Source: Parcubacteria group bacterium (GTDB taxonomy: Bacteria > Patescibacteriota > Minisyncoccia > Moranbacterales > UBA2206). Taken from it: a stretch of 64,000 bases of DNA. The notes below the pieces were generated by a model. It worked only from the letters and a program-made list of their open reading frames with translations, did not search any database and was not told the DNA's origin. The stretch covers positions 26,721 through 90,720 of the forward strand of contig JBAYWF010000004.1 of assembly GCA_041674205.1 (NCBI GenBank). The letters run 5' to 3'. This document shows positions 27,648 to 42,998 of this stretch, piece after piece. A program made the translations under genes and the position numbers. Within the stretch, counting starts at the first letter, position 1. Every line of letters begins with the position of its first letter.

Positions 27648-27697
27648 ATCTGGTTTTTAAAAAAATGATTTTATATCCATTTGCGAATGGGCGCTTA

Positions 27698-28138
27698 TCA
27701 GGCGTTTTCAACCAGCACCATGATCATCGCTTCGATTTTGTGGTCCAGTTCGATTTTCACTTCATATTCCCCCAGCTCCCTGATCGGTCCTTTCAATATG
27801 ATTGATTTTTCCGGTACGGTTATGTTTTCCTTTTTCAATTCTTTCACGATATCCTTGACGCCTACTGATCCGAAAAGCTTCCCGTCTTTGGATTTGACGA
27901 TAAGCGTGATCGCCTTGCCCTCCAACCGATCGGCCAATTCTTGTGTCTTTTCCAAATCCAATTGGTCTTTCTCGGCTTGTTTTTTCTGGATAACTTCAGC
28001 TTTCTTCAAGCCTGATCCGGTGGCGATTTCAGCCAGCTTTTTCACGAATAGAAAATTCCTCGCGTAGCCTTCCGCGACTTCCTTTATGGCGCCTTTTTTT
28101 CCAAGGCCCTTCACGTCTTGTAGGAGGATGATTTTCAT
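27698..28138 (-). CDS. rplI: 50S ribosomal protein L9
   Basis: [30 protein letters not shown] is the canonical L9 N-domain. Confidence 0.85.
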
Positions 28139-31171: not shown

Positions 31172-31813
31172 TTAAGACTGAAGATTTTTCTCCGCCTCGA
31201 TCAAATCATGCAAACTTCCGATTTCAACATAGCCCTCTTTCGCCCGCAAACCGTCGCCATCATTCAGGATGTGGTATAGGCGGTAGCCGAAATCGCCGGC
31301 TTCTTTTTTGACTTCTTCGGCGGCCTCCGCGAAGTTTCCGCAATTTTTGAGTTTGTCATCGGTATACACGACCGTCCGGAACCCTTCGGCATATTTTTTC
31401 CGCAAATAATCCAGAAGCATCTCTTTGGTTTTCACGTTCGTTTCGGCATAATCGAAAGTCGAGTTTATTTTTTTGAAAAACTTCCGCACATCAAATCCGA
31501 TCCGCGGGGTGAGATATTCCGCCCGCCAGTCGATCTGTTCCGGGTTGCCTTGCGTGAAAACCTCGCTGTGCTGCGCCCATTCCAAAACTTCCTGCGCGCC
31601 CGGCATCAGATCAAGCTTGAAATACCAGCCTTCGCCATAAGGTATTTTATACATTTCTTCCTCTTCCCGCGCGGAAATACCGTCCATTTTTCTGCCAAGT
31701 TCGTTTTCCAGCCAATCATAATAGCCGGCAAATCCGGTTTTCTCCGCGTCCCATTCCTCCCGGAAAATCGTCCCGGCCAGATCCCAAAGATACAATGTTT
31801 TATTATTTTTCAT
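31172..31813 (-). CDS. Hypothetical protein with weak HAD-like features
   Basis: LYLWDLAGTIF resembles a degenerate HAD motif I (second Asp absent). TVVYTDDK is motif-IV-like. Assignment is weak. Confidence 0.3.
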   Translation of the reverse strand: MKNNKTLYLWDLAGTIFREEWDAEKTGFAGYYDWLENELGRKMDGISAREEEEMYKIPYGEGWYFKLDLMPGAQEVLEWAQHSEVFTQGNPEQIDWRAEYLTPRIGFDVRKFFKKINSTFDYAETNVKTKEMLLDYLRKKYAEGFRTVVYTDDKLKNCGNFAEAAEEVKKEAGDFGYRLYHILNDGDGLRAKEGYVEIGSLHDLIEAEKNLQS

Positions 31814-32393
31814 CTATTTCTCTAATTAATTTTTTTATATCTTTAAAAATTATCACTTTCATTCCCGCCAATATGGCGCCTTCCACCCTGTCCGGGCGAT
31901 CATCGACATAGATAGCCTCCCCTCCGGATATCCCGGCTTGGGCGAGAGCATAGTCAAAAATTTCTTTTGCCGGCTTGCGGATATGCAGATCACCCGACAC
32001 CGCGATGATATCGAAAATGCCGTTCCATCCGAAGTTATTGGAAAAATATTCGAACCATTCCTTGGGATTATTGGAAATGACGCCGATTTTATATTTTTTC
32101 TTCAAGGTCCTAATATAATCCACGAGCTCGGTATTTTGAACGAAGCCCCCAAGTACGGATTCCCGTAATCGATTTACATCCAGCCCATTCTTAAAATTCT
32201 TACTTACCTCATCGAAATATTCTTTTTCAGAAATTTTACCCAGCGTAAAATCCTTCCAGTATGGAAAATCGCGCATTGCCGCGTAAAGACTGCCTGGCGC
32301 CAAGGAATTATCCTTTTCATATTCCCTGATTCCGGAGATAAACCCCTCTTTTACCAGGACATTTCCCGAATCAAAAAAAATCGCTTTTATCAT
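31803..32393 (-). CDS. HAD-superfamily hydrolase-fold protein (subfamily IA-like, variant motif I)
   Basis: IFFDSGNVL (motif I, second Asp replaced), IGVISNN (motif II), K...YVDDRPDRVEGAILAGMKVIIF (motifs III/IV). Confidence 0.55.
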   Translation of the reverse strand: MIKAIFFDSGNVLVKEGFISGIREYEKDNSLAPGSLYAAMRDFPYWKDFTLGKISEKEYFDEVSKNFKNGLDVNRLRESVLGGFVQNTELVDYIRTLKKKYKIGVISNNPKEWFEYFSNNFGWNGIFDIIAVSGDLHIRKPAKEIFDYALAQAGISGGEAIYVDDRPDRVEGAILAGMKVIIFKDIKKLIREIDEK

Positions 32394-32399
32394 ATGGTT

Positions 32400-33899
32400 T
32401 TAACTTGTAGCCCGTTCAATGATTTTTATCACGCCTGTTTTGGCATCCACTTCCACTAGATCATTATCATGGATTATCCTCGTGCCGTTTTTCGTATCCA
32501 TCACGCAAGGAACGCCTAGTTCCCTCGATACGATCGCCGCATGCGAAGACAATCCGCCCTGATCGGCTATTATAGCTGCCGCCTTTTCCATCGCCACCAC
32601 GAAATCCGGGGTAGTGAATTGGGCGACCAATATATCGCCCTTGTTTACTTTCGGGATATCCTTTTTGTCCAGGCAAATTTTCGCCCTTCCGCGAATAATC
32701 CCTCCCGAACATGCCACTTTGCCTTTTAGCTCCTCGGATTTTACGACATCGACGAAATAATCTTTTTCCATTTTTTTTATTTCTTCCGGATCGGTAATCA
32801 GCCGCGTCTTTGAATTACGGACGATCATAGCATAATTGGAATGCCTCCGCGCCATTTCTTCCGCATCGGGCAATACCTTGCCTTCCAGGGCGCCAAACAT
32901 TTCCTCATCCGTGATTTCCATGATTTCATCCGGATTGAAATTAGATCTTCGGGCGATTTCGGAATAGAGAAAACTCGCTCCAAAATCAGCATTGAAGAAA
33001 GCTTCTACGCGCCTATTGCGCAAATATGAATGATGTTTGGCCTTTCTGATTATTTCCAGAAAGTCAGGCTTAGGTTTTATCTTATCCAGCGCCGCTTCAT
33101 AGTCCGCCTCCACTTTTTCTTCCGAAGCGTTATAGTCCATCTCGTCCAATTTCATTCCATCGTCCACCTGTTTTTTTATTTCTTTCAAGCGATTGATTAT
33201 GTCCTCAAAAGAATAGGGCCGGCTAGTAGCCAATCCCCTGTTTATATAGGCGTATTTATCCAGATGATCATCGATAATATTCCTAGCCTCAGCCGATAAT
33301 CCATCCAGATCCTCCATTTTTTCAAAAAAATCCTTCGCAATCGCCAATAGAGCTATCCTTTCCTGGCTCACTTCGGTCGCTTTTTCCGGATCGGTAAACG
33401 TCAGCACTAGGTTCCTGAATCCAGAATCGCTAGAAGGGATGTATTCCGCCAAATTGTTCTCAATCGCGTTCTCAAAATACTCATCCAGTGGATATTGCGC
33501 ATACCAGGCGCCGACCAGACTCCTATATTTATTCAATATATCAGCCAAGGATTCCTTCAACTCAGAATTGTCTTTTTCTTTCCAATTGATTTTTTTAAGT
33601 TCTAATCCTTTTTTATACAGATTCTCGCATTCTTCCAATTCTCTTTGGCAATACCGCTCAAACCAACCATCATTAGCCTTAAGATGATCAATCACTTCTT
33701 TTTCGAAACTGTTATATTCCGACGCCTCCCAATACATCATATGGTTCAAGAATGTGCGGTTGCAAAGCACGGTTTTAATTTCGACTTTGCTAGCATCCTC
33801 CTTGTTAAAAGCAGAATTTATCATAAAACGCAAGAAAATCGGAAGTTTTCCCGAAGGTTTGATCCTCCATTTCCCCGAATGCATGACCGCTGATGACAT
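32400..33899 (-). CDS. Phosphotransferase paralog 3: variable N-domain + phosphohistidine swivel domain
   Basis: C-terminus KGKVACSGGIIRGRAKI...[46 protein letters not shown]. Confidence 0.7.
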   Translation of the reverse strand: MSSAVMHSGKWRIKPSGKLPIFLRFMINSAFNKEDASKVEIKTVLCNRTFLNHMMYWEASEYNSFEKEVIDHLKANDGWFERYCQRELEECENLYKKGLELKKINWKEKDNSELKESLADILNKYRSLVGAWYAQYPLDEYFENAIENNLAEYIPSSDSGFRNLVLTFTDPEKATEVSQERIALLAIAKDFFEKMEDLDGLSAEARNIIDDHLDKYAYINRGLATSRPYSFEDIINRLKEIKKQVDDGMKLDEMDYNASEEKVEADYEAALDKIKPKPDFLEIIRKAKHHSYLRNRRVEAFFNADFGASFLYSEIARRSNFNPDEIMEITDEEMFGALEGKVLPDAEEMARRHSNYAMIVRNSKTRLITDPEEIKKMEKDYFVDVVKSEELKGKVACSGGIIRGRAKICLDKKDIPKVNKGDILVAQFTTPDFVVAMEKAAAIIADQGGLSSHAAIVSRELGVPCVMDTKNGTRIIHDNDLVEVDAKTGVIKIIERATS

Positions 33900-33917
33900 A
33901 TGATTGTAATTAAAAGA

Positions 33918-34868
33918 TTATTTTGCTGATTCTTTAGAATTTTTCCATTCCTTATACTTGCCCACCAATGCCAGAAATTTATTTTTGTCGATAAAAACTT
34001 TGCTTTCCGCCGGTCGGCTGCCACCCTCGAACCTGACCGGTATTTTATCCGGCAGATCGTTCGGATTTTTGATATCCAAATAGATCGATTCGTTGGTATC
34101 GATAAAACCGCCAAAGTCCTCGTTTTCAAAATCGGAAATCGGTCCTTCCTGGCCATCCGCTCCCAGCATAACGCCCGCCTTCTTCAACAAGGCCTCCATG
34201 AACATGCCATGCGTAACAGTATTCAATACGGCATCCTTTTTAACATTGGAATCATCCCCACCCCGGTATCGCCTATCATATCTTCCCGCTATTTCAAATT
34301 CGTGATTCAATTGTTGCGCTAACCCCATAGCCATCCGGGTTATCACCTCATCGTTTTCTTCCCTTAGGATATATCTGAATCCGACCGCTTGGTTTTTGGC
34401 CCGGATCGGTGCGATTTTTTCTTGGTCGGGCAATTTCGTAAGGTCGACTTTCAATTTTCCATTTTCATCCCTTTCAGTCGACTCGCCTAATTCCCGCAGG
34501 GTTTCTTCATTGATCAAATCAGCAGCTTTCCCTAGCTGTTTTTTCAAATCCGGATTCAATATCCCATATTGGATATCCTCGACTTTGCGCGTAGCATATT
34601 GCTTCCCGGTCAATTCCGACTTGATGCCGCTTTTTTCAGAAATGAGATCGCCAGTAATAAAAGCTCGGTCGCTTTTTTCATCACTGGCATAGGCCTTCAG
34701 CACCTCGGCCTCTTCTCCGATTTGCCCGCCCTTCCCACTTGCGTTTTCAATGCCCTCGGGAGAAAGTTCACCTGAAGCCAGCCTTTCCGCGTGCCTTGTG
34801 ATCATAAAGACATATGTGGGTTCTTTTTCAAATGTTACTTCTTTAGGGCCGCCTTCCTTGAAACTCAT
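33918..34868 (-). CDS. Histidine-phosphatase-superfamily protein (phosphoglycerate-mutase-like branch)
   Basis: VFMITRHAERL gives the RHG-type catalytic motif (R-H-A-E). Confidence 0.5.
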   Translation of the reverse strand: MSFKEGGPKEVTFEKEPTYVFMITRHAERLASGELSPEGIENASGKGGQIGEEAEVLKAYASDEKSDRAFITGDLISEKSGIKSELTGKQYATRKVEDIQYGILNPDLKKQLGKAADLINEETLRELGESTERDENGKLKVDLTKLPDQEKIAPIRAKNQAVGFRYILREENDEVITRMAMGLAQQLNHEFEIAGRYDRRYRGGDDSNVKKDAVLNTVTHGMFMEALLKKAGVMLGADGQEGPISDFENEDFGGFIDTNESIYLDIKNPNDLPDKIPVRFEGGSRPAESKVFIDKNKFLALVGKYKEWKNSKESAK

Positions 34869-34902
34869 AAATTTATTCTTAAATATTTATGTTTTTATTA
34901 TA

Positions 34903-36381
34903 TCACGATTTATTCAATATTCTCACGATCCCCATATCCGCATCCACTTCCACCAAGTCCCCGTCATGCAAAATCTGCGTCGCAATTTTGGTGCCGATGA
35001 TGCAAGGGATTTTCAGCTCACGGGAAATTATCGCAGCATGCGAAGTTATACCACCCTCGTCAGTTATTATAGCTGAAGCTTTTTTCATAAGCGACACGAA
35101 TTCCGGCCGGGTCATGCCAGTTACCAATATTTCGTTTTTCAAAAAATAATTTCTTTGCGCCCGATAGCTATGTATAACTCGCACTCTGCCTTGCACCTTT
35201 CCAGGTGATCCAACACTCCCCTTAATAATATTTCCTCCATATTTTTCTAAGGATTGTTGTTGTAAATAATAATCATTGATCTGTTTTTTAACGTCTTCGT
35301 GCTTTCCGATATTTTCTATCATTTTACCACCCTTATCTATAAATACCGAATATTCAGGAAAACGCGCTTGTACTATGTGGCTTATGGAAGAAATATATTC
35401 AGATCCTTTCAAGACTTCATGAAAATGAGTATACGGAATATATTTTTCTCCTACAGCACACTGAGCGAATATTTTTTGCGCAAATCTATATGTAACAGTT
35501 GTAAAGCGAGCCATAGAATCCTTCCTTACATCTCTTAATTTCATAATTGCTTGTATATATTCAACGAGTTTTATTTCTTCCGAGGAAAGAGTCCTGATCC
35601 ACCGCGCATATTCTTGTCGCCTTTCTTTTTCAGCATCAATATCCCGCCTAAGGATATCGTCGATTTGGGCTAATGAAAAATCACCGAAATCTTTTTTTAA
35701 ATTTGACGCGACTTCTGACGCGGATTTGATATGGTCATAATGGGCTTCAAAAAACTGGCATTTTTCCCCTATTTTCTCCCAAGAACAACCTTCCTTTATC
35801 ATATTGATAAGTATATGTCTCCTTCTGATATCAAACGAATGGGAAACGGGCCATGTCGCATTCTCCCAAAGGGATCGCACCCTATCCGGATTTATATCGC
35901 TTTTCACTTGTTTGAGAAATCCCAGACACATCCGCTCATCAAATGCGATGGAAAAAAATAGCGCTGCGTTCATATCCCATACCGCGTCTCTTATGGCAAT
36001 CACATCGTCTTTGATTTCAGACTCCTGCTTCAACGCGATGTAATGATATGTGAGTTTTTCATAAATTTCCGATATCTTATCATCAAGCCTATGAAAAATT
36101 TTAAATCGTTGATCCAATATGTCCTGGCCTTTCCAATGTCTCAGAAAAATTTCCTCGGAATGCCGTTGCGCCTGCGAAAAATGATAGTAATAAATACCCT
36201 CTTTAGAATTCATCGTGACAACAAGCGGGAATGACAAATCATCATCATAATACTTTTTAAAGTATTTTCTAGTATTCCATCCGCTTGACTGGACAATCAT
36301 AGCGCCATTGTATAAGGCCGGAGAAATTTCCTCATTTCGTGACGCCCGCGTAAATAATTGTGCCACACCATATGTTTCCAT
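34903..36381 (-). CDS. Phosphotransferase paralog 4: variable N-domain + phosphohistidine swivel domain
   Basis: C-terminus GSVGSPGKVQGRVRVI...[72 protein letters not shown]. Confidence 0.7.
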   Translation of the reverse strand: METYGVAQLFTRASRNEEISPALYNGAMIVQSSGWNTRKYFKKYYDDDLSFPLVVTMNSKEGIYYYHFSQAQRHSEEIFLRHWKGQDILDQRFKIFHRLDDKISEIYEKLTYHYIALKQESEIKDDVIAIRDAVWDMNAALFFSIAFDERMCLGFLKQVKSDINPDRVRSLWENATWPVSHSFDIRRRHILINMIKEGCSWEKIGEKCQFFEAHYDHIKSASEVASNLKKDFGDFSLAQIDDILRRDIDAEKERRQEYARWIRTLSSEEIKLVEYIQAIMKLRDVRKDSMARFTTVTYRFAQKIFAQCAVGEKYIPYTHFHEVLKGSEYISSISHIVQARFPEYSVFIDKGGKMIENIGKHEDVKKQINDYYLQQQSLEKYGGNIIKGSVGSPGKVQGRVRVIHSYRAQRNYFLKNEILVTGMTRPEFVSLMKKASAIITDEGGITSHAAIISRELKIPCIIGTKIATQILHDGDLVEVDADMGIVRILNKS

Positions 36382-36394
36382 ATTGAATATGATA

Positions 36395-37882
36395 TCACGA
36401 ATTTATTTTTAATATTCGAACTGTCCCGCGATCCGCATCCACCTCCACCAAATCCCCGTCGTGCAAAATTTGCGTCGCGATTTTGGTGCCGATGATACAA
36501 GGTTTTTTCATTTCTCGAGCGACGATAGCCGCGTGGCAAGTGACACCGCCTTCGTCTGTCACAAAAGCAGAAGCTTTACGCATAGCCGGAAGATAACTAG
36601 GCTTGGTCATATGCGCGATCAAAATATCCCCTGCCTTCACTTTCATCAAATCTTGCTCGTTGTTTAAAACTTTTACTGCGCCCCTTGCGATCCCATGCGA
36701 GGCCACCACTCCCATAATTTCAGTTTTCACATCTCTAACCAAAGATTTCTTGCCAATTTCCCGCCCGATTATTTTCTCCGCTTCCGTGCCGACATGATAA
36801 TTCTCCTTGCCGTCACACATCCACATAAATGTTCCATCCCTATGGGATACTTCCCTAAAATCAAAATTTTTACCGCCCACCAAGTCCTTGTATTCAGAAA
36901 ATTTCATAAAATACCGCGCCTCTTTTGGAACATCAAATCTCCTAATCACCTCCTTGAATAAAATATTTATATACTGATGGGATCTAGTATATATGCCATC
37001 CCTATATTCCTTTAAATAAATAATTTTTCTCAATGCGGAAAATAAATCATGATGCCTCTTATCAATATTCAATTTATTTTCTATGTCTTTTATATTTTTC
37101 GCGATTTCTTTCTTTCCAGGAAGAGTGGACAATCCCTTTTCCGATAAATCCTTTAATCTCGGAATAAAATCCCCCGGCTCCATTATGGGCCCAAGAAATT
37201 GATAACCCAATGACTGCCAACCGAATTTCTCCGCATGCTTCTTTAATGCCAACGACGCTTTGGTTCCTGAAATAGATTCCCCCTTTCTGATCATTTTCAC
37301 GATCTTCCAAAGATTTTCATCACTTAATCTGGCCCAAGACTTTCCCGGATTGTAGGCAAGCTTAGAAAAATATTCTCCGAGTTTATTTTCTTCGCCCGCG
37401 TCTTTTAATTTTGATTTCAAATACGGGATTACTTCATCCTCAATGGCAAAGGTGGCGATTACCGGAATATATGTATATATGGCTAAATTTTCATAGGCTT
37501 TTTCAAAATCACTCAAATATTTCAAAAGTTCCTTATCACCTTTACTAGAAAAGTCGATTTTAGAAAATTTTTTGCTATACGCTATCAGGTTTCGGCCATT
37601 TTTAAAATGATATTTTTCCAGTCTGTCTAAAAAATTCGTTTCTTTTTTTATTTCTCTCAAGAAAAATTTGGCAAAATTATCCAAATCCTGTTGTTTCCAA
37701 TATATGGATATTTTATCGCCCTCCCATAAATAAATATGTCCGAGATAGGTTTTGGCAAATTTCTTAAATGCCGGATGGAAAGGATGCGCGCTATCCCGCA
37801 AGTTGCAATATGAAACCGCAATTCCCTCCCGCTCCGTCCAAAGCCACCATTTGGATTTATTTTTAGATCTGGTTTTCTCCAT
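36395..37882 (-). CDS. Phosphotransferase paralog 5: variable N-domain + phosphohistidine swivel domain
   Basis: C-terminus GVVASHGIARGAVKVL...ILIAHMTKPSYLPAMRKASAFVTDEGGVTCHAAIVAREMKKPCIIGTKIATQILHDGDLVEVDADRGTVRIL. Confidence 0.7.
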   Translation of the reverse strand: MEKTRSKNKSKWWLWTEREGIAVSYCNLRDSAHPFHPAFKKFAKTYLGHIYLWEGDKISIYWKQQDLDNFAKFFLREIKKETNFLDRLEKYHFKNGRNLIAYSKKFSKIDFSSKGDKELLKYLSDFEKAYENLAIYTYIPVIATFAIEDEVIPYLKSKLKDAGEENKLGEYFSKLAYNPGKSWARLSDENLWKIVKMIRKGESISGTKASLALKKHAEKFGWQSLGYQFLGPIMEPGDFIPRLKDLSEKGLSTLPGKKEIAKNIKDIENKLNIDKRHHDLFSALRKIIYLKEYRDGIYTRSHQYINILFKEVIRRFDVPKEARYFMKFSEYKDLVGGKNFDFREVSHRDGTFMWMCDGKENYHVGTEAEKIIGREIGKKSLVRDVKTEIMGVVASHGIARGAVKVLNNEQDLMKVKAGDILIAHMTKPSYLPAMRKASAFVTDEGGVTCHAAIVAREMKKPCIIGTKIATQILHDGDLVEVDADRGTVRILKINS

Positions 37883-37896
37883 AATTTATAAAATCT

Positions 37897-38991
37897 TTAT
37901 TCCTCGCTCGCTCTCTTTAAAATTTTAACCACCCCCTTATCCGCGTCCACTTCCACTTCATCACCCGTTTTGAATGAGAGCGTCGCGTTAACCGTATTTA
38001 CGATACAGGGGATATTAAGCTCCCGCGACACGACTGCCGCATGGGAAAGCATTCCTCCGGTATTCGTAACGATCGCTGCCGCTTTTTTACATAACAATAG
38101 GACCTCCGGGCTGGTAGTCTCCGCTATTAGAATATCTCCCTTTTTCATTATTTTATCAATCTCCATAATCTGCTTATGATTATCGAACATCGGAACCACT
38201 ACAGCTTTTCCCGAAACCATCCCCCTGCTCGCGCTAACGCCTTTAACAATTTTCCTATTCACCCTTTCAGCAAATCGATCAAAAATATTTTTGGCTTCTT
38301 GATATGGGAATACCGCCAGCTTTCCCTTATGGTTTGTAGCCGCATAACATTTTTCTCTTCGTTCATAATCTTTTGGCGGCATATGTCCGTCAAAAAGCCC
38401 TCTTATCTCATCGGTGTAAAGATACTCGGCTTTCACGTCGTATTTCCTGGAAAAATATTTATAAATATTTTCCAAGACACCGCCCCTGAAATAATAGTCG
38501 TTCATAATTTCCCGGACTTCGAATTTAAATCTACCAGCATAATCCAAGTTTTTCTTTATGACCTTATTATCGTTCTTTTGAGCCACGGCATATGCATATT
38601 CTTGGAAATAGGCTTCTAAAAATCCATATCTTTTCCATAATAATCCCATGAAGTTTCTTGCATCAATGAATTCTTCTTTGGTTAAATTTTCGGGAACTTT
38701 TTTAAAATCTTTAATTATCCCTGACTTCGCTTCTCGTATATATTCCTTATATTCCTCAATATATCCATTAAATTCTTCCTGATTTCCATATAGCTCCAAC
38801 CCTTGTTCCGCCCAATCTTTTTCATGTCGACGGCTTATATATGAATAAAATACCATATTTTGGTTCATGACAAGCATATCTTGTCCCAGTGGACCCTCCA
38901 GAAGAAATTCACTATGCATACATCCGATAAGCCCGTCTGTACGGAAATATTTAATGAAATCTTCCGGATTCAATTGGTTTGGGTTTATCAT
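37897..38991 (-). CDS. Phosphotransferase paralog 6 (short N-domain, ~260 aa) + phosphohistidine swivel domain
   Basis: C-terminus GVSASRGMVSGKAVVV...ILIAETTSPEVLLLCKKAAAIVTNTGGMLSHAAVVSRELNIPCIVN. Confidence 0.65.
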   Translation of the reverse strand: MINPNQLNPEDFIKYFRTDGLIGCMHSEFLLEGPLGQDMLVMNQNMVFYSYISRRHEKDWAEQGLELYGNQEEFNGYIEEYKEYIREAKSGIIKDFKKVPENLTKEEFIDARNFMGLLWKRYGFLEAYFQEYAYAVAQKNDNKVIKKNLDYAGRFKFEVREIMNDYYFRGGVLENIYKYFSRKYDVKAEYLYTDEIRGLFDGHMPPKDYERREKCYAATNHKGKLAVFPYQEAKNIFDRFAERVNRKIVKGVSASRGMVSGKAVVVPMFDNHKQIMEIDKIMKKGDILIAETTSPEVLLLCKKAAAIVTNTGGMLSHAAVVSRELNIPCIVNTVNATLSFKTGDEVEVDADKGVVKILKRASEE

Positions 38992-39005
38992 ATATTTATT
39001 TACAG

Positions 39006-39830
39006 TTAATCATTCAATTCCACTTTCTCGCCCCTTCTCGCTATGGCGATGCTATTTTCTGAGACGTCGATTTTTATAGCTTCACAATTCTTAATTTCAT
39101 GATCGCCAAAATATTCATTTAAAGCATAGGCTATATAATTTTCATGTCCGAATGCCATAACTTTTATATTTTTCCCAGACCCGCTCTCCTTGATTTTATC
39201 ATGACCAAACCTTATCAACCTTAACAAATTTTTAAAATTGACATCAAACGTATCTTTAGCTGATTTTATTTCAGGGAAAAATTTTTTTAATTCTTCCGAG
39301 TAGTGAAAAAAATTAGCCCCCCAATTCCCATAATTTTTATTTTCTACAATTTTTCGAGCTTCCTCCCATTTCTTCCTGGCTTCAGCTGGAACTTTTTCCC
39401 AGTCTACATCCACGGACCGTGTCGGCATAAAAAGATATTGGACAAGAACATTGTCTATGCGCAATGACAAGTTTTTTATCTTCCTTATTCTCCCCTCACT
39501 AACTTCGTCTGAATACGCGCTTCTTGAACGTTTAGGACATACTATTTCGAAGCCTTTTCTTTCAGCAACCTTCATATATATGCTGGCCGTATCCATCGCT
39601 CTCACTTGCCCGCTAGACACAAAGAATAATCCATCATCATCGGGGTTAAATTCCGATAATAATTTTTCTGCCTCTTGCTCCGCCAAAATAATTCCTTCTT
39701 TTGATAAATCATTCTTTTCTTGCTCGCTTTCCTCAATAGGGCCCTGAGGATTATCAGAATCTAATATTTTTTTATAACTCTTATATTCTGAAATGCTATG
39801 GCGCACACCGTAAATTTCACTTTTTTCCAT
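39006..39830 (-). CDS. Histidine-phosphatase-superfamily protein
   Basis: IYGVRHSISEY (RHG-type motif) and MAFGHENYI (second catalytic His region). Confidence 0.5.
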   Translation of the reverse strand: MEKSEIYGVRHSISEYKSYKKILDSDNPQGPIEESEQEKNDLSKEGIILAEQEAEKLLSEFNPDDDGLFFVSSGQVRAMDTASIYMKVAERKGFEIVCPKRSRSAYSDEVSEGRIRKIKNLSLRIDNVLVQYLFMPTRSVDVDWEKVPAEARKKWEEARKIVENKNYGNWGANFFHYSEELKKFFPEIKSAKDTFDVNFKNLLRLIRFGHDKIKESGSGKNIKVMAFGHENYIAYALNEYFGDHEIKNCEAIKIDVSENSIAIARRGEKVELND

Positions 39831-39834
39831 AAAT

Positions 39835-40047
39835 TTATTTGTCTTCCGATTTTTTAATTATCCTCACAATCCCCTTATCCGCATCCACTTCCACCAGATC
39901 CCCGTCACGCAAAACTTGGGTGGCGATTTTGGTGCCGACGATACAAGGGATTTTGAATTCCCGCGCCAGCATCGAGGCGTGGCAAAGCATTCCGTCCTCA
40001 TCGGTCACGATCGCTTTTACTTTTTTCTTAAAATATAAATGGGCCAA
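39835..40047 (-). pseudogene. Orphan 3-prime fragment of a phosphohistidine-swivel-domain gene (C-terminal ~60 residues only)
   Basis: Encodes ...KAIVTDEDGMLCHASMLAREFKIPCIVGTKIATQVLRDGDLVEVDADKGIVRII behind a short non-homologous leader. Overlaps the 3-prime end of the methyltransferase paralog at 40017-40838 by about 30 nt. Confidence 0.6.
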
Positions 40048-40838
40048 TATCTGGGATCGAAGTATTTATCGGTTATGTATTTAACGTCTTCAATCAGATA
40101 ATATTTATTAAAAATATTTTCCAAATTGTCCCTTAGCGGCAATCTGATTTTCAGGCTGCTCGGTTTAATAAATCCAAGCATCGTCTTAAGTTCCGAATCA
40201 TCAATAATCCGTTTTCCGCGCATATCGCGCAACTTCGATAATATTCCGGACGGCGTATAGGATCCTTTTTTCCGCCCTATTGAAAGCGCCAGGTCCGGGT
40301 AAGCCATCATAAAAAGCGTTTTTTTGCCCGTCTTGATTCGCAGTTTCCTGTATCTTTCAAACCCATCAGCCGGATTGACTTCTTTGCGTACCGGACGTAT
40401 TACCGCGGTAGTCGCGAATATCCCGCCCGGCTTCAAATTGTCGGCAATATTTTTTACAAAAAAGCTTTGTTTATTTATCGGGATCATATTGATAACGTTA
40501 TGGCCCATTATCAAATCAAATCCACGCGCATCATCCAGCTCAAGCCAATCAGACTCAATGAATAATTCTTTTCCATCCCTTTTCATCAAAATCCTCAGCG
40601 CCTCATACACCTCCGAATTCACATCACAACAAATCGGCGTTATTTTATGCTTCAAAAGCAAATCACGGAATTCCGGCGTCGACCCCAAAATTAAAATCCT
40701 CGGCTTCTTATTACCTGCAAGAACCTTTCTGATGATTTTTTCGTATATAGCCATTTCCAACCCTGGCCTGACGGGCGCGGCATAATTTTTCCAATCTTTT
40801 GCCAATTGTTTGTTCCAAGGAAGTTTTTTTTCAGTCAT
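40017..40838 (-). CDS. Methyltransferase-fold paralog 7 (same family as the 8.6-14.1 kb array)
   Basis: VRPGLEMAIY, ILILGSTPEFRDL, ICCDVNSEV, FDLIMGH, LKPGGIFATTAV. Confidence 0.5.
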   Translation of the reverse strand: MTEKKLPWNKQLAKDWKNYAAPVRPGLEMAIYEKIIRKVLAGNKKPRILILGSTPEFRDLLLKHKITPICCDVNSEVYEALRILMKRDGKELFIESDWLELDDARGFDLIMGHNVINMIPINKQSFFVKNIADNLKPGGIFATTAVIRPVRKEVNPADGFERYRKLRIKTGKKTLFMMAYPDLALSIGRKKGSYTPSGILSKLRDMRGKRIIDDSELKTMLGFIKPSSLKIRLPLRDNLENIFNKYYLIEDVKYITDKYFDPRYWPIYILRKK

Positions 40839-40857
40839 ATCTATATATAACTAATTA

Positions 40858-40900
40858 TTTCGCGCCCACCTCCGCCAGATCCCCATTCTGCAAAAAATCG
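40858..40900 (-). repeat. Remnant of the conserved 3-prime terminus of a swivel-domain gene (...LQNGDLAEVGAK*), immediately downstream of the GGCT-like gene
   Basis: cgcgcccacctccgccagatccccattctgcaaaaaatcgc parallels the 3-prime ends of paralogs 4/5 (cgcatccacctccaccaaatccccgtcgtgcaaaatttgcg). Confidence 0.5.
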
Positions 40901-40903
40901 CAT

Positions 40904-41446
40904 TCAATCAATCTGGTGCTTCCTCCTATATTCTTCATAATCTCTTGCCGCGACTTTCAAAATAGCATCTTTCGGGACTAAATAATCTTCATAATCCCCA
41001 TTTTCAATCACCCTATCCGCCGGCATATCCGGCGATAATGACCCGTGCGTGATAATATTGACGATTTTTCCTTCTGAATCCATCGCAATGGCTTTGATAT
41101 CTTCCTGCATACCATATTCCAGCAATTCCCAATCCCTAACCAATCCATATTCTTCTTCTGTCAGTTTCCAAATCGTACCATAAGTGACGGCGTTAACTTT
41201 TGGCCTGATAATATATAACTCAAAATTATCATCAAAAGCCTTGGAAACGATTTCGCGCGGAGAAAGCCTGGATGGCGCCGTCCCAATTATTTCTCCCGGT
41301 ATATCATCGATTTTTTGGACACACAGCTCAAAGCCCAGTAATTTTCCCTTAACGCCTTCGATTTTTTCACGGCCAACCATAGCAGACATCATCTCCAAAT
41401 CGCGATTAGTGCCATAGCCGAAATAATCCAATAGTTGCTTCTTCAT
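40904..41446 (-). CDS. Gamma-glutamyl cyclotransferase-like (GGCT/AIG2/BtrG fold) protein
   Basis: N-terminal YFGYGTNRD matches the YFAYGSN signature of the GGCT fold. Confidence 0.5.
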   Translation of the reverse strand: MKKQLLDYFGYGTNRDLEMMSAMVGREKIEGVKGKLLGFELCVQKIDDIPGEIIGTAPSRLSPREIVSKAFDDNFELYIIRPKVNAVTYGTIWKLTEEEYGLVRDWELLEYGMQEDIKAIAMDSEGKIVNIITHGSLSPDMPADRVIENGDYEDYLVPKDAILKVAARDYEEYRRKHQID

Positions 41447-41465
41447 AGCGTTTGTTTTGATTTAA

Positions 41466-42344
41466 TTAATTCAAACTTAATTCTTTGCCTTGTATTTCAC
41501 AGGATGCCTTGCCGCGCTTATCGATTCCGATGGAAATGCCAGCGCCTTGATCGACTGGCAAATATTTTTTCATGTCTATCCCGGCAATATGCCTTTTGAT
41601 AAAAGGGCTTATGGAATCATAATGGCTTACCGCCCAGATGATTAATCGCCTGTCAGGATTAGCCTTGTGATATTCATCAGCTATCTGCGCCTGTAATGAA
41701 AGCGCGTAATTAACCCGGTCAGCTATTCCATCCGGACCTTCCGCACCCATCTCTACACGAGTCTCCCTTTCCGAATCTGATTCATACGCATCCCAAAATT
41801 CCACCCCGGTTCCATATTTATCTATCAAAAATTGCGTAAATTCTGGTGACTCTTCCAATATCATCAAGTCCCTCAGTTCTGAAACTTCAATAGCTCCGCC
41901 GTTTTGAGCGGCTGAATTATTCAACAATTGTCCATCCGCAATAAAAAATTCCGACATAGATTCCCTGAGCCCCGTCATTACCTGACCGGCAGTTTCCACC
42001 GCCCTCTGATGCTTATTTTTTATTCCATCGGGAGTGGACAATGTCGAATCGCTGGCAATCACCATCACATCGATCATTTTTCTCTCTTCCTCATTTAAAC
42101 CGCCAAATATCTTATTGAAAAATTCCTTGGCGTTCACTCGCACTTGTTCTGCCGCGCCAACTTCAAGCGCACCCATATCTGGCGAGTCTTTGCGCCTATC
42201 GTCTTTGGCGTTGCGCTGCAAAACGATTGTCGAGCCGCCGATTTCAGGCATTTTTGGATGGAGATCTGCCGATGTGATTCTTTCTATTTCAACCTTCCCG
42301 CCTTCGTTATGAAAAATTTGATTCGGCCATTCATTCATAAACAA
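41466..42344 (-). CDS. Hypothetical protein, possibly a degenerate histidine-phosphatase-like fold
   Basis: RLIIWAVSHYDSISP resembles the second-His region of histidine phosphatases, but the RHG motif is not evident (IVLQRNAKD). Confidence 0.3.
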   Translation of the reverse strand: MFMNEWPNQIFHNEGGKVEIERITSADLHPKMPEIGGSTIVLQRNAKDDRRKDSPDMGALEVGAAEQVRVNAKEFFNKIFGGLNEEERKMIDVMVIASDSTLSTPDGIKNKHQRAVETAGQVMTGLRESMSEFFIADGQLLNNSAAQNGGAIEVSELRDLMILEESPEFTQFLIDKYGTGVEFWDAYESDSERETRVEMGAEGPDGIADRVNYALSLQAQIADEYHKANPDRRLIIWAVSHYDSISPFIKRHIAGIDMKKYLPVDQGAGISIGIDKRGKASCEIQGKELSLN

Positions 42345-42353
42345 TTTAATTTT

Positions 42354-42893
42354 TTATTTATTAATATCCTTAGCCAGATAATCCGCCGCCTCTTCTATGG
42401 AATCAAAAATAGGCACTCCTTTCTCTTTCCATTTTGAAATCCAATTCCTGTGTCCCATAACCTGCCCTAGCCGATCAGAAGTCGCCCCGCCATCATAGTT
42501 CGTTTCTTCTCTCTTTTTGATAAATGATTTATGCTTCTCCCATTCGGGCACGACTACCGCATCCGGCCTAAGCCAATTATTAGAAGCGCCCATAATCCAC
42601 AAACCTTTTTCTATGGCCCGCTTTGTCACTTCATCACTTCGCCTATCGATTTCATCCATCACATCTTCGCTTTCCAGCCACCATGCCCTTTTCGGATGAG
42701 CGCCTGATTTTTCCCATAATTTATCGCCATCGATCCAATTTTTGTCCTTTTGCCTATCTACAAAATATGTTTTACCGGCACCGGATGGAGCAACGATAAA
42801 AAGCCCTGACTTGTGCCTGACGAATTCTTTTAAAAACAGCTCTATCGCCTCAGCAATCTGAGAATCATCCAATGGCTCCAGATCATATACCAT
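42354..42893 (-). CDS. P-loop kinase/NTPase (small-molecule or nucleotide kinase-like). The ORF track extends it to 42974 through an upstream swivel-domain remnant
   Basis: Walker A LFIVAPSGAGKTYFV. Probable start MVYDLEPLDD at 42893. The upstream in-frame codons (MQDGSLVEVDAGVVI) are homologous to swivel-domain C-termini. Confidence 0.5.
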   Translation of the reverse strand: MVYDLEPLDDSQIAEAIELFLKEFVRHKSGLFIVAPSGAGKTYFVDRQKDKNWIDGDKLWEKSGAHPKRAWWLESEDVMDEIDRRSDEVTKRAIEKGLWIMGASNNWLRPDAVVVPEWEKHKSFIKKREETNYDGGATSDRLGQVMGHRNWISKWKEKGVPIFDSIEEAADYLAKDINK

Positions 42894-42924
42894 ATTTTTT
42901 AATATTAAAATGTTACGCTTTTTT

Positions 42925-42975
42925 AATATTATCACAACTCCCGCATCCACTTCCACTAGACTCCCATCCTGCAAA
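42925..42975 (-). repeat. Remnant of the conserved 3-prime terminus of a swivel-domain gene (QDGSLVEVDAGVVI), in frame with the P-loop kinase ORF
   Basis: caactcccgcatccacttccactagactcccatcctgcaaaac parallels the paralog 3-prime ends. Confidence 0.5.
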
Positions 42976-42998
42976 ACCTAAATGAATAATCCTAATCC

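What the first reader, a model, noticed from the sequence alone, without database searches (positions are those of the whole stretch)
31172..42344. Phosphatase-fold genes are interleaved one-to-one with the phosphotransferase paralogs
Each of several swivel-domain genes is immediately followed (minus strand, 3-20 nt gaps) by a histidine-phosphatase-family or HAD-fold gene.
- 29738-31159 is followed by 31172-31813 and 31803-32393 (HAD-like, both with non-canonical motif I).
- 32400-33899 is followed by 33918-34868 (RH-A-E motif).
- 37897-38991 is followed by 39006-39830 (R-H-S motif).
- 41466-42344 may be a further degenerate member.

Kinase-phosphatase pairing at operon level suggests a controlled phosphorylate/dephosphorylate cycle on small molecules, for example activation and proofreading or salvage of host-derived metabolites. 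Constitutive antibiotic inactivation seems less likely. The missing second Asp in the HAD-like proteins hints at altered chemistry or pseudo-enzymes.
Basis: partly seen in the sequence, partly recalled or inferred. Interest (0 to 1): 0.55.

Follow-up and report, generated by a model that had tools for sequence, protein, structure and literature searches.

The report
Split dikinase array with paired phosphatases
A tiny symbiotic (CPR) bacterium carries one ATP-binding kinase subunit and six interchangeable substrate-handling subunits, several with a conserved partner gene of very divergent phosphatase fold; this kinase–phosphatase association is found across the group and I found no description of it.

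Summary
The window comes from a Parcubacteria/Moranbacteria-like CPR genome. It carries a minus-strand cluster with one stand-alone ATP-grasp gene (PPDK_N) and six genes encoding an RPH-like substrate-binding domain plus a phospho-His swivel domain. This is the two-component small-molecule dikinase layout known from PpsAB, CreHI and HpeHI, but with a 1:6 subunit ratio.

- **hp316 (33918-34868):** histidine-phosphatase fold, shown by a structure model and invariant RH…R…H residues.
- **hp274 (39006-39830):** histidine-phosphatase-like, from recurrent sub-threshold PF00300 hits across its family and the same motifs.
- **had196 (31803-32393):** a bona fide HAD.
- **had213 (31172-31813):** a very divergent HAD fold. 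Both HADs lack the Asp+2 residue.
- **hp292 (41466-42344):** has RN instead of RH. It belongs to a separate conserved module (P-loop protein, hp292, 180-aa protein) that occurs without swivel genes.

"One-to-one" overstates the pattern, because three swivel paralogs have no partner of their own. The specific pairs are nonetheless strongly conserved:

- hp316 sits next to a swivel gene in 11 of 11 related loci, usually the sw499 orthologue.
- hp274 sits next to a split or fused dikinase gene in about 17 of 19 loci.
- had213 is fused to swivel proteins in two organisms.

The substrates, and whether the phosphatases act on the products, remain inferred.

The parts
42999..43946 (-). ppdkN315: stand-alone ATP-grasp (nucleotide-binding) subunit, the only one in the window
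   Evidence: PF01326 PPDK_N, E=3.2e-99, profile positions 2-313 of 328. No swivel domain and no PF02896 domain.
42900..42977 (-). Relic of a swivel-domain 3' end ('VLQDGSLVEVDAGVVIILKK'), in frame with ppdkN after two stop codons
   Evidence: copy of repeat family D2.
42354..42893 (-). ploop206: P-loop protein (APSGAGKT) of a separate module with hp292 and x180
   Evidence: Fused to hp292 in P0140.
41466..42344 (-). hp292: degenerate histidine-phosphatase-like protein with RN in place of RH. Candidate pseudo-enzyme, not paired with swivel genes.
   Evidence: Alignment A3. PF00300 hit in 4 of 25 members. Contexts L041-L043.
40904..41446 (-). x180: conserved partner of hp292 and ploop206, with a YFGYG(T/S)N motif
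40845..40900 (-). Second relic of a swivel 3' end ('DFLQNGDLAEVGAK*')
40017..40838 (-). mt273: weak class-I methyltransferase-like protein
   Evidence: PF08242 and PF13649, both sub-threshold. Orthologue sits next to a swivel gene in L004.
39835..40047 (-). 70-aa truncated swivel fragment with a degenerate His motif (TDEDGMLCHASMLARE…LVEVDADKGIVRIIKK). Remnant of a seventh paralog.
39006..39830 (-). hp274: divergent histidine-phosphatase-superfamily protein (R10-H11, R77, H229-E230), partner of sw364-type dikinase subunits
37897..38991 (-). sw364: short substrate-domain plus swivel subunit, catalytic His intact
   Evidence: PF00391, E=1.2e-24. His motif.
36395..37882 (-). sw495: substrate-domain plus swivel subunit
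   Evidence: PF00391, E=3.2e-27..
34903..36381 (-). sw492: substrate-domain plus swivel subunit
   Evidence: PF00391, E=2.1e-24..
33918..34868 (-). hp316: histidine-phosphatase-fold protein with a large helical insert. R25, H26, R29, R68 and H220 are invariant. Cognate partner of sw499.
32400..33899 (-). sw499: substrate-domain plus swivel subunit. Its orthologues travel with hp316 and had196.
   Evidence: PF00391, E=1.8e-24. N-domain orthology scores of 159-778 bits.
31803..32393 (-). had196: HAD-IA phosphatase, YihX/YjjG-like, motif I FFDSGNV (no Asp+2)
31172..31813 (-). had213: very divergent HAD-fold protein (D11, T87-T88, K128, D152; Asp+2 is Ala or Gly). Fused to swivel proteins elsewhere.
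29738..31159 (-). sw473: substrate-domain plus swivel subunit
   Evidence: PF00391, E=3.2e-25. The fusion P0173 joins had213 to a sw473-like N-domain.
28192..29736 (-). sw514: substrate-domain plus swivel subunit
   Evidence: PF00391, E=2.3e-22. NCBIfam RPH/PRK06241 matches over residues 310-509.

Best explanation
The locus encodes a two-component, RPH-like small-molecule dikinase system in an expanded form.

**Proposed mechanism**
- One ATP-grasp subunit (42999-43946) charges the catalytic histidine of any of six paralogous subunits. By analogy with PEP synthase, RPH and HpeHI, the chemistry would be ATP to AMP + Pi + His~P.
- Each of these subunits consists of a divergent RPH-type substrate-binding domain and a conserved swivel domain, and passes the phosphoryl group to its own substrate.
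- Some of these subunits have a dedicated, co-inherited phosphohydrolase-fold partner: hp316 and the HAD had196 with sw499, hp274 with sw364-type subunits, and had213 with sw473/sw499-type subunits.
- I propose that each partner hydrolyses the cognate phosphoester. This could be the direct product or a derivative of it. Each pair would then form a substrate-specific phosphorylate/dephosphorylate unit for activation, trapping or level control.

**Shown**
- Domain architectures and intact catalytic motifs.
- Folds of hp316 and had213.
- Conserved adjacency and fusions.
- hp292 lies outside this scheme.

**Inferred**
- Sharing of the single ATP-grasp subunit among the six.
- Small-molecule substrates.
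- That the phosphatases act on the kinase products.
For: **Architecture**
- PF01326 occurs alone in one gene. PF00391 sits at the C-terminus of six genes.
- A profile of 41 CPR swivel proteins matches the Listeria RPH structures over RPH residues 459-878, covering the RIF-binding domain and the swivel, at E about 5e-35.
- All six carry the GGxx(S/C)HAA motif.
- The split layout has precedent in HpeHI, CreHI and PpsAB (PMC12167813).

**Phosphatase folds**
- hp316: the listed top-50 Foldseek hits are all histidine phosphatases. R25/H26, R68 and H220 are invariant and sit right after strands β1, β2 and β(212-219) of the model.
- PF00300 hits recur across the families.
- had196 passes Pfam HAD. 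had213 has a HAD fold.

**Linkage**
- hp316 is next to a swivel gene in 11 of 11 informative related loci, from Moranbacteria, Veblenbacteria, Kuenenbacteria, Magasanikbacteria and others. Protein identity falls as low as 27-49% and the gene order goes both ways. In 7 of them the neighbour is the sw499 orthologue.
- hp274 is next to split or fused (692-1285 aa) dikinase genes in about 17 of 19 distinct loci.
- Fusions: P0156 is a swivel protein plus had213. P0173 is had213 plus a sw473-like N-domain.
- Further divergent His-phosphatase-like ORFs lie between swivel genes in L001, L026, L027, L035 and L038.

**Argument from divergence**
- The phosphatase families are as divergent from one another as the substrate-binding domains are. 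The swivel domains are 40-58% identical.
- This fits partners that recognise the variable substrate side rather than the conserved phospho-His carrier.

**Operon precedent**
- In the Hpe operon the HAD phosphatase HpeD dephosphorylates the transformed product of the two-component kinase (PMC9618137).
Against: - No substrate is known, and no biochemical data exist for any member.
- A kinase and a phosphatase acting on the same compound would form a futile ATP-consuming cycle unless they are regulated or separated by an intervening step. The conserved hp316-sw499-had196 core contains no transforming enzyme.
- Three swivel paralogs lack a partner.
- None of hp316, hp274 or had213 reaches a Pfam gathering threshold.
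- The two HADs lack the general acid/base Asp+2.
- Histidine-phosphatase-fold enzymes can also be mutases or phospho-protein (phospho-His) phosphatases. Sequence cannot separate these.
- Sharing of one ATP-grasp subunit by six partners is inferred only from gene counts in this window.
Confidence: 0.5

Rival explanations
1. The phosphatase-fold partners act on the enzyme rather than on its product. Like SixA on HPt/NPr, they would remove the phosphoryl group from the swivel histidine, resetting or throttling each dikinase subunit. For the Asp+2-less HAD-like had213, the variant is that it accepts the phosphoryl group from His~P onto its Asp, a His-to-Asp transfer.
For: - The histidine-phosphatase superfamily includes phospho-His and phospho-protein phosphatases such as SixA (established knowledge) and PGAM5, which is among the fold hits.
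- The next-best fold matches of had213 are the HAD domains of the Legionella effectors Lem4 and Ceg4; from memory these are protein phosphatases.
- had213 is physically fused to either end of swivel proteins.
- Neither HAD has the Asp+2 general acid needed for ordinary phosphoester hydrolysis.
Against: - The swivel domains are well conserved among paralogs (40-58% identity), so a single phosphatase could serve all of them. Instead, each partner family is unrelated at sequence level and tracks a particular N-domain orthologue.
- hp316 carries a helical insert of about 100 residues, typical of substrate-capping in small-molecule enzymes.
- YihX-type HADs, which from memory have the same DxGN motif, are active sugar-phosphate phosphatases.
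Confidence: 0.15
2. The pairs are consecutive steps of a pathway rather than opposing activities. The dikinase would add a second phosphate to an already phosphorylated metabolite. The histidine-phosphatase-fold protein would then remove or migrate a different phosphate, acting as a mutase or bisphosphatase. The net result would be an ATP-driven phospho-isomerisation, or synthesis of a specific monophosphate such as a sugar-1-phosphate or a nucleotide.
For: - The fold family includes the mutases dPGM and BPGM and the bisphosphatases TIGAR and FBPase-2.
- The best NCBIfam matches of had196 are glucose-1-phosphatase YihX and the pyrimidine nucleotidases YjjG and 5'-nucleotidase.
- The cluster is syntenic with CTP synthase in the window, L001, L004, L006 and L014.
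- This reading avoids a futile cycle.
Against: - No evidence exists for any bisphosphate intermediate.
- The characterised RPH-family dikinases cited here act on hydroxyl groups of unphosphorylated molecules (PMC4844700, PMC12167813).
- Synteny with pyrG and L9 may simply be inherited gene order.
Confidence: 0.15
3. The swivel paralogs are regulatory protein kinases or phospho-carriers, like the PPDK-derived VadK of M. tuberculosis. The partners would be the matching protein phosphatases, so the locus would be a signalling or regulatory system rather than small-molecule metabolism.
For: - VadK shows that PPDK-derived ATP-grasp plus swivel proteins can act as autophosphorylating regulatory kinases (PMC13400623).
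- PGAM5 appears among the fold hits of hp316 and the Lem4/Ceg4 HAD domains among those of had213; from memory all three are protein phosphatases.
Against: - The sw proteins retain about 300 residues homologous to the RIF-binding (small-molecule) domain of RPH.
- Six or more paralogs with hypervariable binding domains in a genome of about 1 Mb fit substrate diversity better than signalling.
- No target proteins are evident in the cluster.
Confidence: 0.07
4. The interleaving has no functional meaning. It would reflect gene order inherited within one clade, or chance insertion of unrelated hydrolase genes into a recombination-prone paralog array.
For: - The array is clearly rearranged by recombination. 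Three relics of swivel 3' ends lie in the gaps, and cassette content differs between close relatives.
- hp292, ploop206, x180 and mt273 look like unrelated inserts.
Against: - Adjacency of hp316 and hp274 to swivel genes persists at 27-50% protein identity, in both gene orders, next to split and fused dikinases, and in loci that contain nothing else from the cluster, such as L003, L007, L009, L011 and L014.
- Two independent fusions exist.
- With at most 7 swivel genes per roughly 1000 genes, the chance of adjacency is about 1-2% per locus (my estimate).
Confidence: 0.03

Closest known systems
Two-component small-molecule dikinases HpeHI, CreHI and PpsAB (phenylphosphate synthase), with the Hpe operon's HAD phosphatase HpeD
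   Same: - A separate ATP-grasp subunit, plus a subunit made of an RPH-type substrate-binding domain and a C-terminal His swivel domain (PMC12167813).
- In the Hpe operon a HAD-superfamily phosphatase is co-encoded and removes the phosphate later in the pathway (PMC9618137).
   Different: - One ATP-grasp gene here serves six or more substrate subunits, instead of a 1:1 ratio.
- The substrate subunits are shorter: 364-514 aa against about 640 aa for the 71-kDa HpeH.
- No carboxylase or other transforming enzyme lies between kinase and phosphatase.
- The partners are mostly histidine-phosphatase-fold proteins from families without Pfam coverage.
- The host is a CPR bacterium, not an aromatic-compound degrader.
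Rifampin phosphotransferase (RPH) and the PRK06241 'PEP synthase-like' family
   Same: - Homologous substrate-binding and swivel domains (NCBIfam hits).
- The fused relatives next to hp274 homologues (692-1285 aa) have the RPH domain order: ATP-grasp, binding domain, swivel.
   Different: - Split into subunits in the window.
- A phosphatase partner is present, which would undo a resistance function.
- The binding domains are too divergent to infer rifamycin binding.
Bifunctional kinase/histidine-phosphatase enzymes: PFK-2/FBPase-2 and PPIP5K/Vip1
   Same: - A kinase is coupled to a histidine-phosphatase-fold domain acting on the same small molecule. PPIP5K even uses an ATP-grasp kinase domain.
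- TIGAR and the Vip1 phosphatase domain are among the fold matches of hp316.
- Fusion or adjacency acts as the organising principle.
   Different: - Those kinases transfer phosphate directly from ATP, without a swivel His carrier.
- They set the level of one signalling metabolite, whereas here there are many paralogous pairs.
- No sequence relationship exists beyond superfamily level.
Glucan, water dikinase with phosphoglucan phosphatases (SEX4/LSF2) in starch turnover
   Same: A swivel-His dikinase and a dedicated phosphatase act in a reversible phosphorylation cycle on the same substrate (established knowledge; GWD mechanism in PMC13553574).
   Different: - GWD is a single large polypeptide with carbohydrate-binding CBM domains.
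- Its phosphatases are of the dual-specificity (DSP) fold.
- No carbohydrate-binding modules were detected here.

Membership tests
Histidine phosphatase superfamily (Pfam clan; PF00300 His_Phos_1) | α/β phosphoglycerate-mutase-like fold | tested here: met
   Applies to hp316 only. The AF2 model has pLDDT 90.6. All 50 listed Foldseek PDB hits are superfamily members, with E from 2e-6 to 4e-4 and probability 0.98-1.0. hp274 and hp292 were not modelled.
Histidine phosphatase superfamily (Pfam clan; PF00300 His_Phos_1) | N-terminal RHG-type motif with the nucleophilic His | tested here: met
   - hp316: R25-H26 invariant in 30 sequences.
- hp274: R10-H11 present in at least 90% of sequences.
- hp292: NOT met. 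The motif is Q-R-N in 23 of 25 sequences. RH occurs only in P0150 and P0153.
Histidine phosphatase superfamily (Pfam clan; PF00300 His_Phos_1) | Second catalytic Arg and second His of the phosphate pocket | tested here: met
   - hp316: R68 and H220-G221 are invariant and lie directly after β-strands of the model.
- hp274: R77 and H229-E230 are invariant.
- hp292: R114 and H241 are invariant.
Histidine phosphatase superfamily (Pfam clan; PF00300 His_Phos_1) | Score above the Pfam gathering threshold (21.7 bits) | tested here: not met
   - Window proteins: hp316 gives no hit, hp274 gives 12.9 bits (E=0.087) and hp292 gives no hit.
- Family-wise sub-threshold hits: 17 of 30, 19 of 25 and 4 of 25 members respectively.
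Histidine phosphatase superfamily (Pfam clan; PF00300 His_Phos_1) | Phosphomonoesterase or mutase activity via a phospho-His intermediate | not testable with these tools
   Requires an enzyme assay.
HAD superfamily phosphatases | Profile match above threshold | tested here: met
   - had196: PF13419 at 60.2 bits (cut-off 23.8) and PF00702 at 55.4 bits.
- had213: NOT met. It gives no hit, and only 1 of 20 relatives hits PF00702, at E=0.14.
HAD superfamily phosphatases | Rossmannoid HAD fold | tested here: met
   The had213 AF2 model has pLDDT 96.6. Its top seven Foldseek hits are all the HAD enzyme BT-2542 (E from 5e-5 to 9e-4, TM about 0.5), followed by the Lem4 and Ceg4 HAD domains. The moderate TM-scores mean it is a divergent member.
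HAD superfamily phosphatases | Motif I DxDx(T/V), with nucleophile Asp and Asp+2 general acid/base | tested here: not met
   The nucleophile Asp is present in both, but Asp+2 is absent.
- had196 and its orthologues: FFD(S/L/M)(G/F)NV.
- had213 family: D11 in at least 90% of sequences, with position +2 mostly Ala or Gly.
- The same DxGN form occurs, from memory, in the active glucose-1-phosphatase YihX. had196 matches YihX from residue 6 on.
HAD superfamily phosphatases | Motifs II (S/T), III (K) and IV (DD) | tested here: met
   - had196: ISN, RKP and YVDDRPDR.
- had213: FTTGN (T87, T88), K128 and VYTDDK (D152).
Two-component RPH-like small-molecule dikinases (PpsAB, CreHI, HpeHI) | ATP-grasp domain on its own polypeptide | tested here: met
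   The 315-aa protein consists of PF01326 only.
Two-component RPH-like small-molecule dikinases (PpsAB, CreHI, HpeHI) | Second subunit made of an RPH RIF-binding-type domain plus a C-terminal swivel domain with the catalytic His | tested here: met
   The A7 profile matches RPH residues 459-878 at E about 5e-35. PF00391 is present in all six genes. The GGxx(S/C)HAA motif is intact in all six.
Two-component RPH-like small-molecule dikinases (PpsAB, CreHI, HpeHI) | One ATP-grasp subunit per substrate subunit (1:1 gene pair) | tested here: not met
   The ratio in the window is 1:6. Related loci have 1 ATP-grasp gene with 4-7 swivel genes: L001, L008 and L012.
Two-component RPH-like small-molecule dikinases (PpsAB, CreHI, HpeHI) | ATP + substrate + H2O gives AMP + Pi + phospho-substrate | not testable with these tools
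   Requires reconstitution of the enzyme.
PEP synthase / pyruvate phosphate dikinase | C-terminal PEP/pyruvate-binding TIM-barrel domain (PF02896) | tested here: not met
   No PF02896 hit in any gene of the cluster. The PEP synthase structures match only the linker and swivel region.

The most novel reading that the evidence does not exclude
CPR bacteria use a single ATP-grasp 'charger' and a rapidly exchanging set of swivel-His cassettes. Each cassette is locked to its own fast-evolving phosphohydrolase-fold partner. Together they would form a modular phosphoryl-distribution system, for example for phosphorylative capture and release of many different host-derived compounds. In the boldest version, the Asp+2-less HAD-like proteins that are fused to swivel domains receive the phosphoryl group directly from the swivel His~P. 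That would be a previously unknown His-to-Asp relay outside classical two-component signalling.
Probability: 0.12. Interest if true: 0.85.

Novelty: new variant of a known kind. Interest (0 to 1): 0.6.

Why it matters
- **Genome investment.** CPR/Patescibacteria have genomes of about 1 Mb, yet this one devotes roughly 15 kb to the system. Relatives carry up to seven swivel paralogs, so the system presumably matters for their symbiotic lifestyle.
- **Extension of a known enzyme class.** Two-component small-molecule dikinases have so far been characterised only in aromatic-compound catabolism. This finding extends them to a one-charger, many-adaptors layout.
- **New families.** It defines at least three phosphatase-fold families (hp316, hp274 and had213) that no Pfam, NCBIfam or PDB sequence search recognises.
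- **Testable guilt by association.** The link to a kinase is conserved and fusion-supported, which gives a concrete handle: reconstitute ppdkN with sw499 and with or without hp316/had196, then screen metabolites.
- **Evolutionary footprint.** The relic swivel 3' ends show how such paralog arrays are reshuffled.

Tried and rejected
- **Single-sequence and profile searches of the PDB** for hp316, hp274 and hp292 gave only non-significant hits. A PGM1 match fell at the expected motif but at E=0.72.
- **Profile-profile comparison (hhalign)** among the three hp families gave only short local matches at the right motifs, with probabilities of 0.5-51%. Common ancestry cannot be shown by sequence.
- **A 75-residue N-terminal query of had196**, meant to display the motif-I alignment with YihX, found nothing.
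- **The look-up of encoding contigs** with the window's own hp316 found no exact record.
- **Promoter and terminator scans** were at chance level: 40 against 37.7 and 19 against 15.5.
- **No tRNAs** lie in the cluster.
- **The PADLOC defence-system scan** gave nothing except a generic methyltransferase match for mt273. A defence-island reading was dropped.
- **Literature searches** for a dikinase/histidine-phosphatase link, or for CPR swivel paralogs, returned nothing relevant.
- **PEP synthase or PPDK proper** was considered and rejected because there is no PEP/pyruvate domain.
- **Antibiotic (rifamycin) resistance** was considered and rejected as the main role. A conserved cognate phosphatase would reverse it, and the paralog number is too high.

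Full report
**Source and layout**

The window comes from a CPR bacterium. hp274 and hp292 are 100% identical to proteins of an NCBI MAG labelled 'Parcubacteria group bacterium' (locus tags WC120_03035 and WC120_03055, contig 318 kb). The closest relatives of hp316 are from Candidatus Moranbacteria.

Genes from 43946 down to 28192 lie on the minus strand. From hp274 to sw514 the gaps range from an 11-nt overlap to 34 nt. In transcription order the genes are:

- ppdkN315 (42999-43946)
- ploop206
- hp292 (41466-42344)
- x180
- mt273
- hp274 (39006-39830)
- sw364
- sw495
- sw492
- hp316 (33918-34868)
- sw499
- had196 (31803-32393)
- had213 (31172-31813)
- sw473
- sw514
- ribosomal protein L9 and CTP synthase

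**The phosphotransferase paralogs**

One gene is a bare ATP-grasp domain (PF01326, E=3e-99). Six genes end in a PEP-utilisers swivel domain (PF00391, E from 1e-22 to 1e-27) with an intact GGxx(S/C)HAA catalytic-His motif. None has a PEP/pyruvate-binding domain.

Their N-terminal 250-400 residues have no Pfam match and are very divergent from one another. A profile of 41 CPR homologues nevertheless aligns with the Listeria rifampin phosphotransferase structures over RPH residues 459-878, which is the RIF-binding domain plus the swivel, at E about 5e-35. PEP synthase aligns only over the linker and swivel.

The system is therefore a split RPH-type small-molecule dikinase. This layout has been shown experimentally for HpeHI, CreHI and PpsAB (PMC12167813). 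The difference here is one ATP-grasp gene for six substrate subunits.

**Are the interleaved ORFs phosphatase folds?**

- **had196:** yes, by curated thresholds (HAD_2 at 60.2 bits). Its best named relatives are YihX glucose-1-phosphatase and YjjG-type pyrimidine nucleotidases.
- **hp316:**
  - Sequence searches failed.
  - Its 59 homologues are, where named, all CPR or unclassified bacteria.
  - R25, H26, R29, R68, H220 and G221 are invariant.
  - The AF2 model (pLDDT 90.6) places R25/H26, R68 and H220 directly after β-strands, as in phosphoglycerate-mutase-like enzymes.
  - All 50 listed Foldseek PDB hits belong to the histidine-phosphatase superfamily: acid phosphatase, TIGAR, GpgP, MINPP, RosC, PGAM5, BPGM and Vip1.
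  - 17 of 30 family members give sub-threshold PF00300 hits, and no other family recurs.
- **hp274:** 19 of 25 members hit PF00300, best 1.7e-4. R10-H11, R77 and H229-E230 are conserved. It was not modelled.
- **had213:** this is a tiny family, with 34 cluster representatives among 1.84 billion, and has no profile support. Its model (pLDDT 96.6) matches the HAD enzyme BT-2542 and then the Lem4/Ceg4 HAD domains. HAD motifs I (Asp only), II, III and IV can be read in the alignment.
- **hp292:** the nucleophile position reads R-N in 23 of 25 members and R-H only in the two most divergent. Only 4 of 25 members touch PF00300. It is best described as a degenerate, probably non-catalytic relative.

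**Is the pairing conserved?**

*hp316.* Every informative related locus has a swivel gene immediately next to the hp316 homologue. These are L001/L002, L003-L009 and L011-L013, which make 11 distinct loci.

- I compared only the N-terminal domains. In L001, L004, L005, L006, L008, L012 and L013 the neighbour is the orthologue of sw499, scoring 159-778 bits against 30-60 bits for paralogs.
- The gene order goes both ways.
- In L003, L007, L009 and L011 the pair stands alone, away from any cluster.
- had196 follows sw499 in the window, L004, L005, L006 and L008.

*hp274.* Its homologues lie next to a swivel gene, a stand-alone PPDK_N gene, or a fused full-length RPH-like gene of 692-1285 aa in about 17 of 19 distinct loci. 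L015 and L034 are the exceptions. The partner's N-domain is weakly sw364-like in several of them.

*had213.* It occurs fused to swivel proteins. P0156 is a swivel protein followed by had213. P0173 is had213 followed by a sw473-like N-domain, which is exactly the gene order in the window.

*Other loci.* Further, even more divergent His-phosphatase-like ORFs lie between swivel genes:
- L001 7090-7848
- L026 8453-9427
- L027 11510-12370
- L035 3941-4861
- L038 3543-4418

L001 also has an HD-domain gene overlapping the start of a swivel gene.

A genome of about 1000 genes has at most about seven swivel genes, so chance adjacency would be 1-2% per locus (my estimate).

**What is not part of it**

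hp292 travels with ploop206 and x180. This holds in the window, L006, L041 and L043 (a Woesearchaeota archaeon MAG). L042 has ploop206 and hp292. P0140 is a fusion of hp292 and ploop206. No swivel gene is adjacent in L041-L043.

The 'one-to-one' description is therefore too strong. Six swivel genes face four phosphatase-fold genes, and sw495, sw492 and sw514 have no dedicated partner. Relatives have runs of four to six swivel genes without any phosphatase between them, as in L008 and L012.

**Mechanism**

The parts that are shown are a split dikinase with intact catalytic motifs and cognate phosphohydrolase-fold partners whose linkage is under selection.

My main inference rests on divergence. 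The partner families are as divergent from each other as the substrate-binding domains are, whereas the phospho-His carrier domain is conserved. The partners therefore most likely recognise the variable side of the system, meaning the specific phosphorylated product or a derivative. Each pair would then be a substrate-specific phosphorylate/dephosphorylate unit.

Precedents exist:
- the Hpe operon, in which a two-component dikinase is followed by a carboxylase and then the HAD phosphatase HpeD (PMC9618137);
- PFK-2/FBPase-2;
- PPIP5K/Vip1;
- glucan water dikinase with its phosphoglucan phosphatases.

The main weakness is that the conserved hp316-sw499-had196 core has no intervening enzyme. A direct kinase/phosphatase pair would be futile unless it is regulated. 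That keeps three alternatives alive: phospho-His resetting in the manner of SixA, including a His-to-Asp transfer onto the Asp+2-less HAD-like protein; mutase or bisphosphatase steps; and protein phosphorylation as with VadK (PMC13400623).

The missing Asp+2 is not in itself evidence for a pseudo-enzyme in had196. had196 aligns from residue 6 on with YihX, an active phosphatase. From memory, YihX has the same DxGN motif.

**Evolutionary footprint**

Three 'intergenic' gaps contain relics of the conserved 3' end of swivel genes:
- 42900-42977, directly after ppdkN and in its frame;
- 40845-40900, after x180;
- a 70-aa fragment with a degenerate His motif at 39835-40047, after mt273.

The 37-nt segment that encodes DGDLVEVDA is present in eight copies. 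Close relatives differ in cassette content. L004 lacks hp274-sw364-sw495-sw492 and the ploop206-hp292-x180 block, while L006 carries other cassettes. The conserved core is hp316-sw499-had196-(had213)-sw473-sw514-(L9)-pyrG. This fits cassette turnover by recombination at the conserved swivel-coding ends.

**Novelty and verdict**

I found no paper linking swivel-domain dikinases with histidine phosphatases, or describing these paralog arrays in CPR. No defence-system model matches.

The finding is a new variant of a known kind: a two-component small-molecule dikinase with an unprecedented 1:many subunit layout and conserved partners from phosphatase-fold families that current profile libraries do not cover.

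The substrate and the direction of phosphatase action remain open.

Noticed in passing
window 42900-42977 (-), 40845-40900 (-), 39835-40047 (-): Three relics of swivel-domain 3' ends sit in apparent intergenic gaps. One lies in frame just after the ATP-grasp gene. One follows x180. One is a 70-aa ORF with a degenerate catalytic-His motif, directly after mt273. A 37-nt coding element (DGDLVEVDA) occurs in 8 copies. Together these suggest cassette gain and loss by recombination at the conserved swivel ends, and that the stand-alone ATP-grasp gene arose from a fused RPH-like gene.
   Followed up: partly
window 40904-42893 (-); L006 522-2537; L041 7398-9418; L042 8001-9469; L043 7307-9949: ploop206 (P-loop protein), hp292 (RN-type histidine-phosphatase-like) and x180 form their own conserved module. 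x180 has a YFGYG(T/S)N motif that, from memory, resembles gamma-glutamylcyclotransferase/AIG2-like proteins. The module is found in distant CPR genomes and in a Woesearchaeota (DPANN archaeon) MAG. A natural hp292-ploop206 fusion exists (P0140). Function unknown.
   Followed up: partly
L001 7090-7848; L026 8453-9427; L027 11510-12370; L035 3941-4861; L038 3543-4418; L001 1524-2150: Other CPR loci carry additional, still more divergent His-phosphatase-like ORFs (RH/RHG … GH motifs, weak PF00300 or A1/A2 HMM hits) between swivel genes. One locus has an HD-domain phosphohydrolase gene overlapping the start of a swivel gene. The kinase/phosphohydrolase association is therefore broader than the two families in the window.
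   Followed up: partly
window 25941-28138 (-); L001 15479-17587; L004 16718-18905; L006 16625-18262; L014 12233-13912: CTP synthase, usually with ribosomal protein L9, flanks the swivel cluster in several genomes. In the Uhrbacteria locus L014 only a single hp274-swivel pair is present next to it. This could be inherited synteny or a hint of a link to pyrimidine nucleotides. had196 also resembles YjjG-type pyrimidine nucleotidases.
   Followed up: no
L018 2611-5949; L026 1070-4615; L028 2508-5966; L030 2080-5937; L032 1370-3745; L035 1860-3938; L036 282-2711: Many hp274 homologues sit next to fused full-length dikinases (PPDK_N, binding domain, swivel; 692-1285 aa) rather than split ones. The phosphatase association therefore pre-dates, or is independent of, the splitting of the kinase.
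   Followed up: partly
window 40017-40838 (-); L004 7623-8468; L006 4161-6863; L027 10742-11500: Methyltransferase-like genes recur inside these clusters. mt273 is only sub-threshold in Pfam. L027 has a clear Methyltransf_11 gene between a swivel gene and a His-phosphatase-like gene. This is a possible modifying step between phosphorylation and dephosphorylation.
   Followed up: no
L001 12169-14442: In one relative the stand-alone ATP-grasp gene is directly preceded by ribBA (DHBP synthase/GTP cyclohydrolase II). RosC, a flavin-phosphate phosphatase, is among the fold matches of hp316. This is only a weak hint of a cofactor connection.
   Followed up: no
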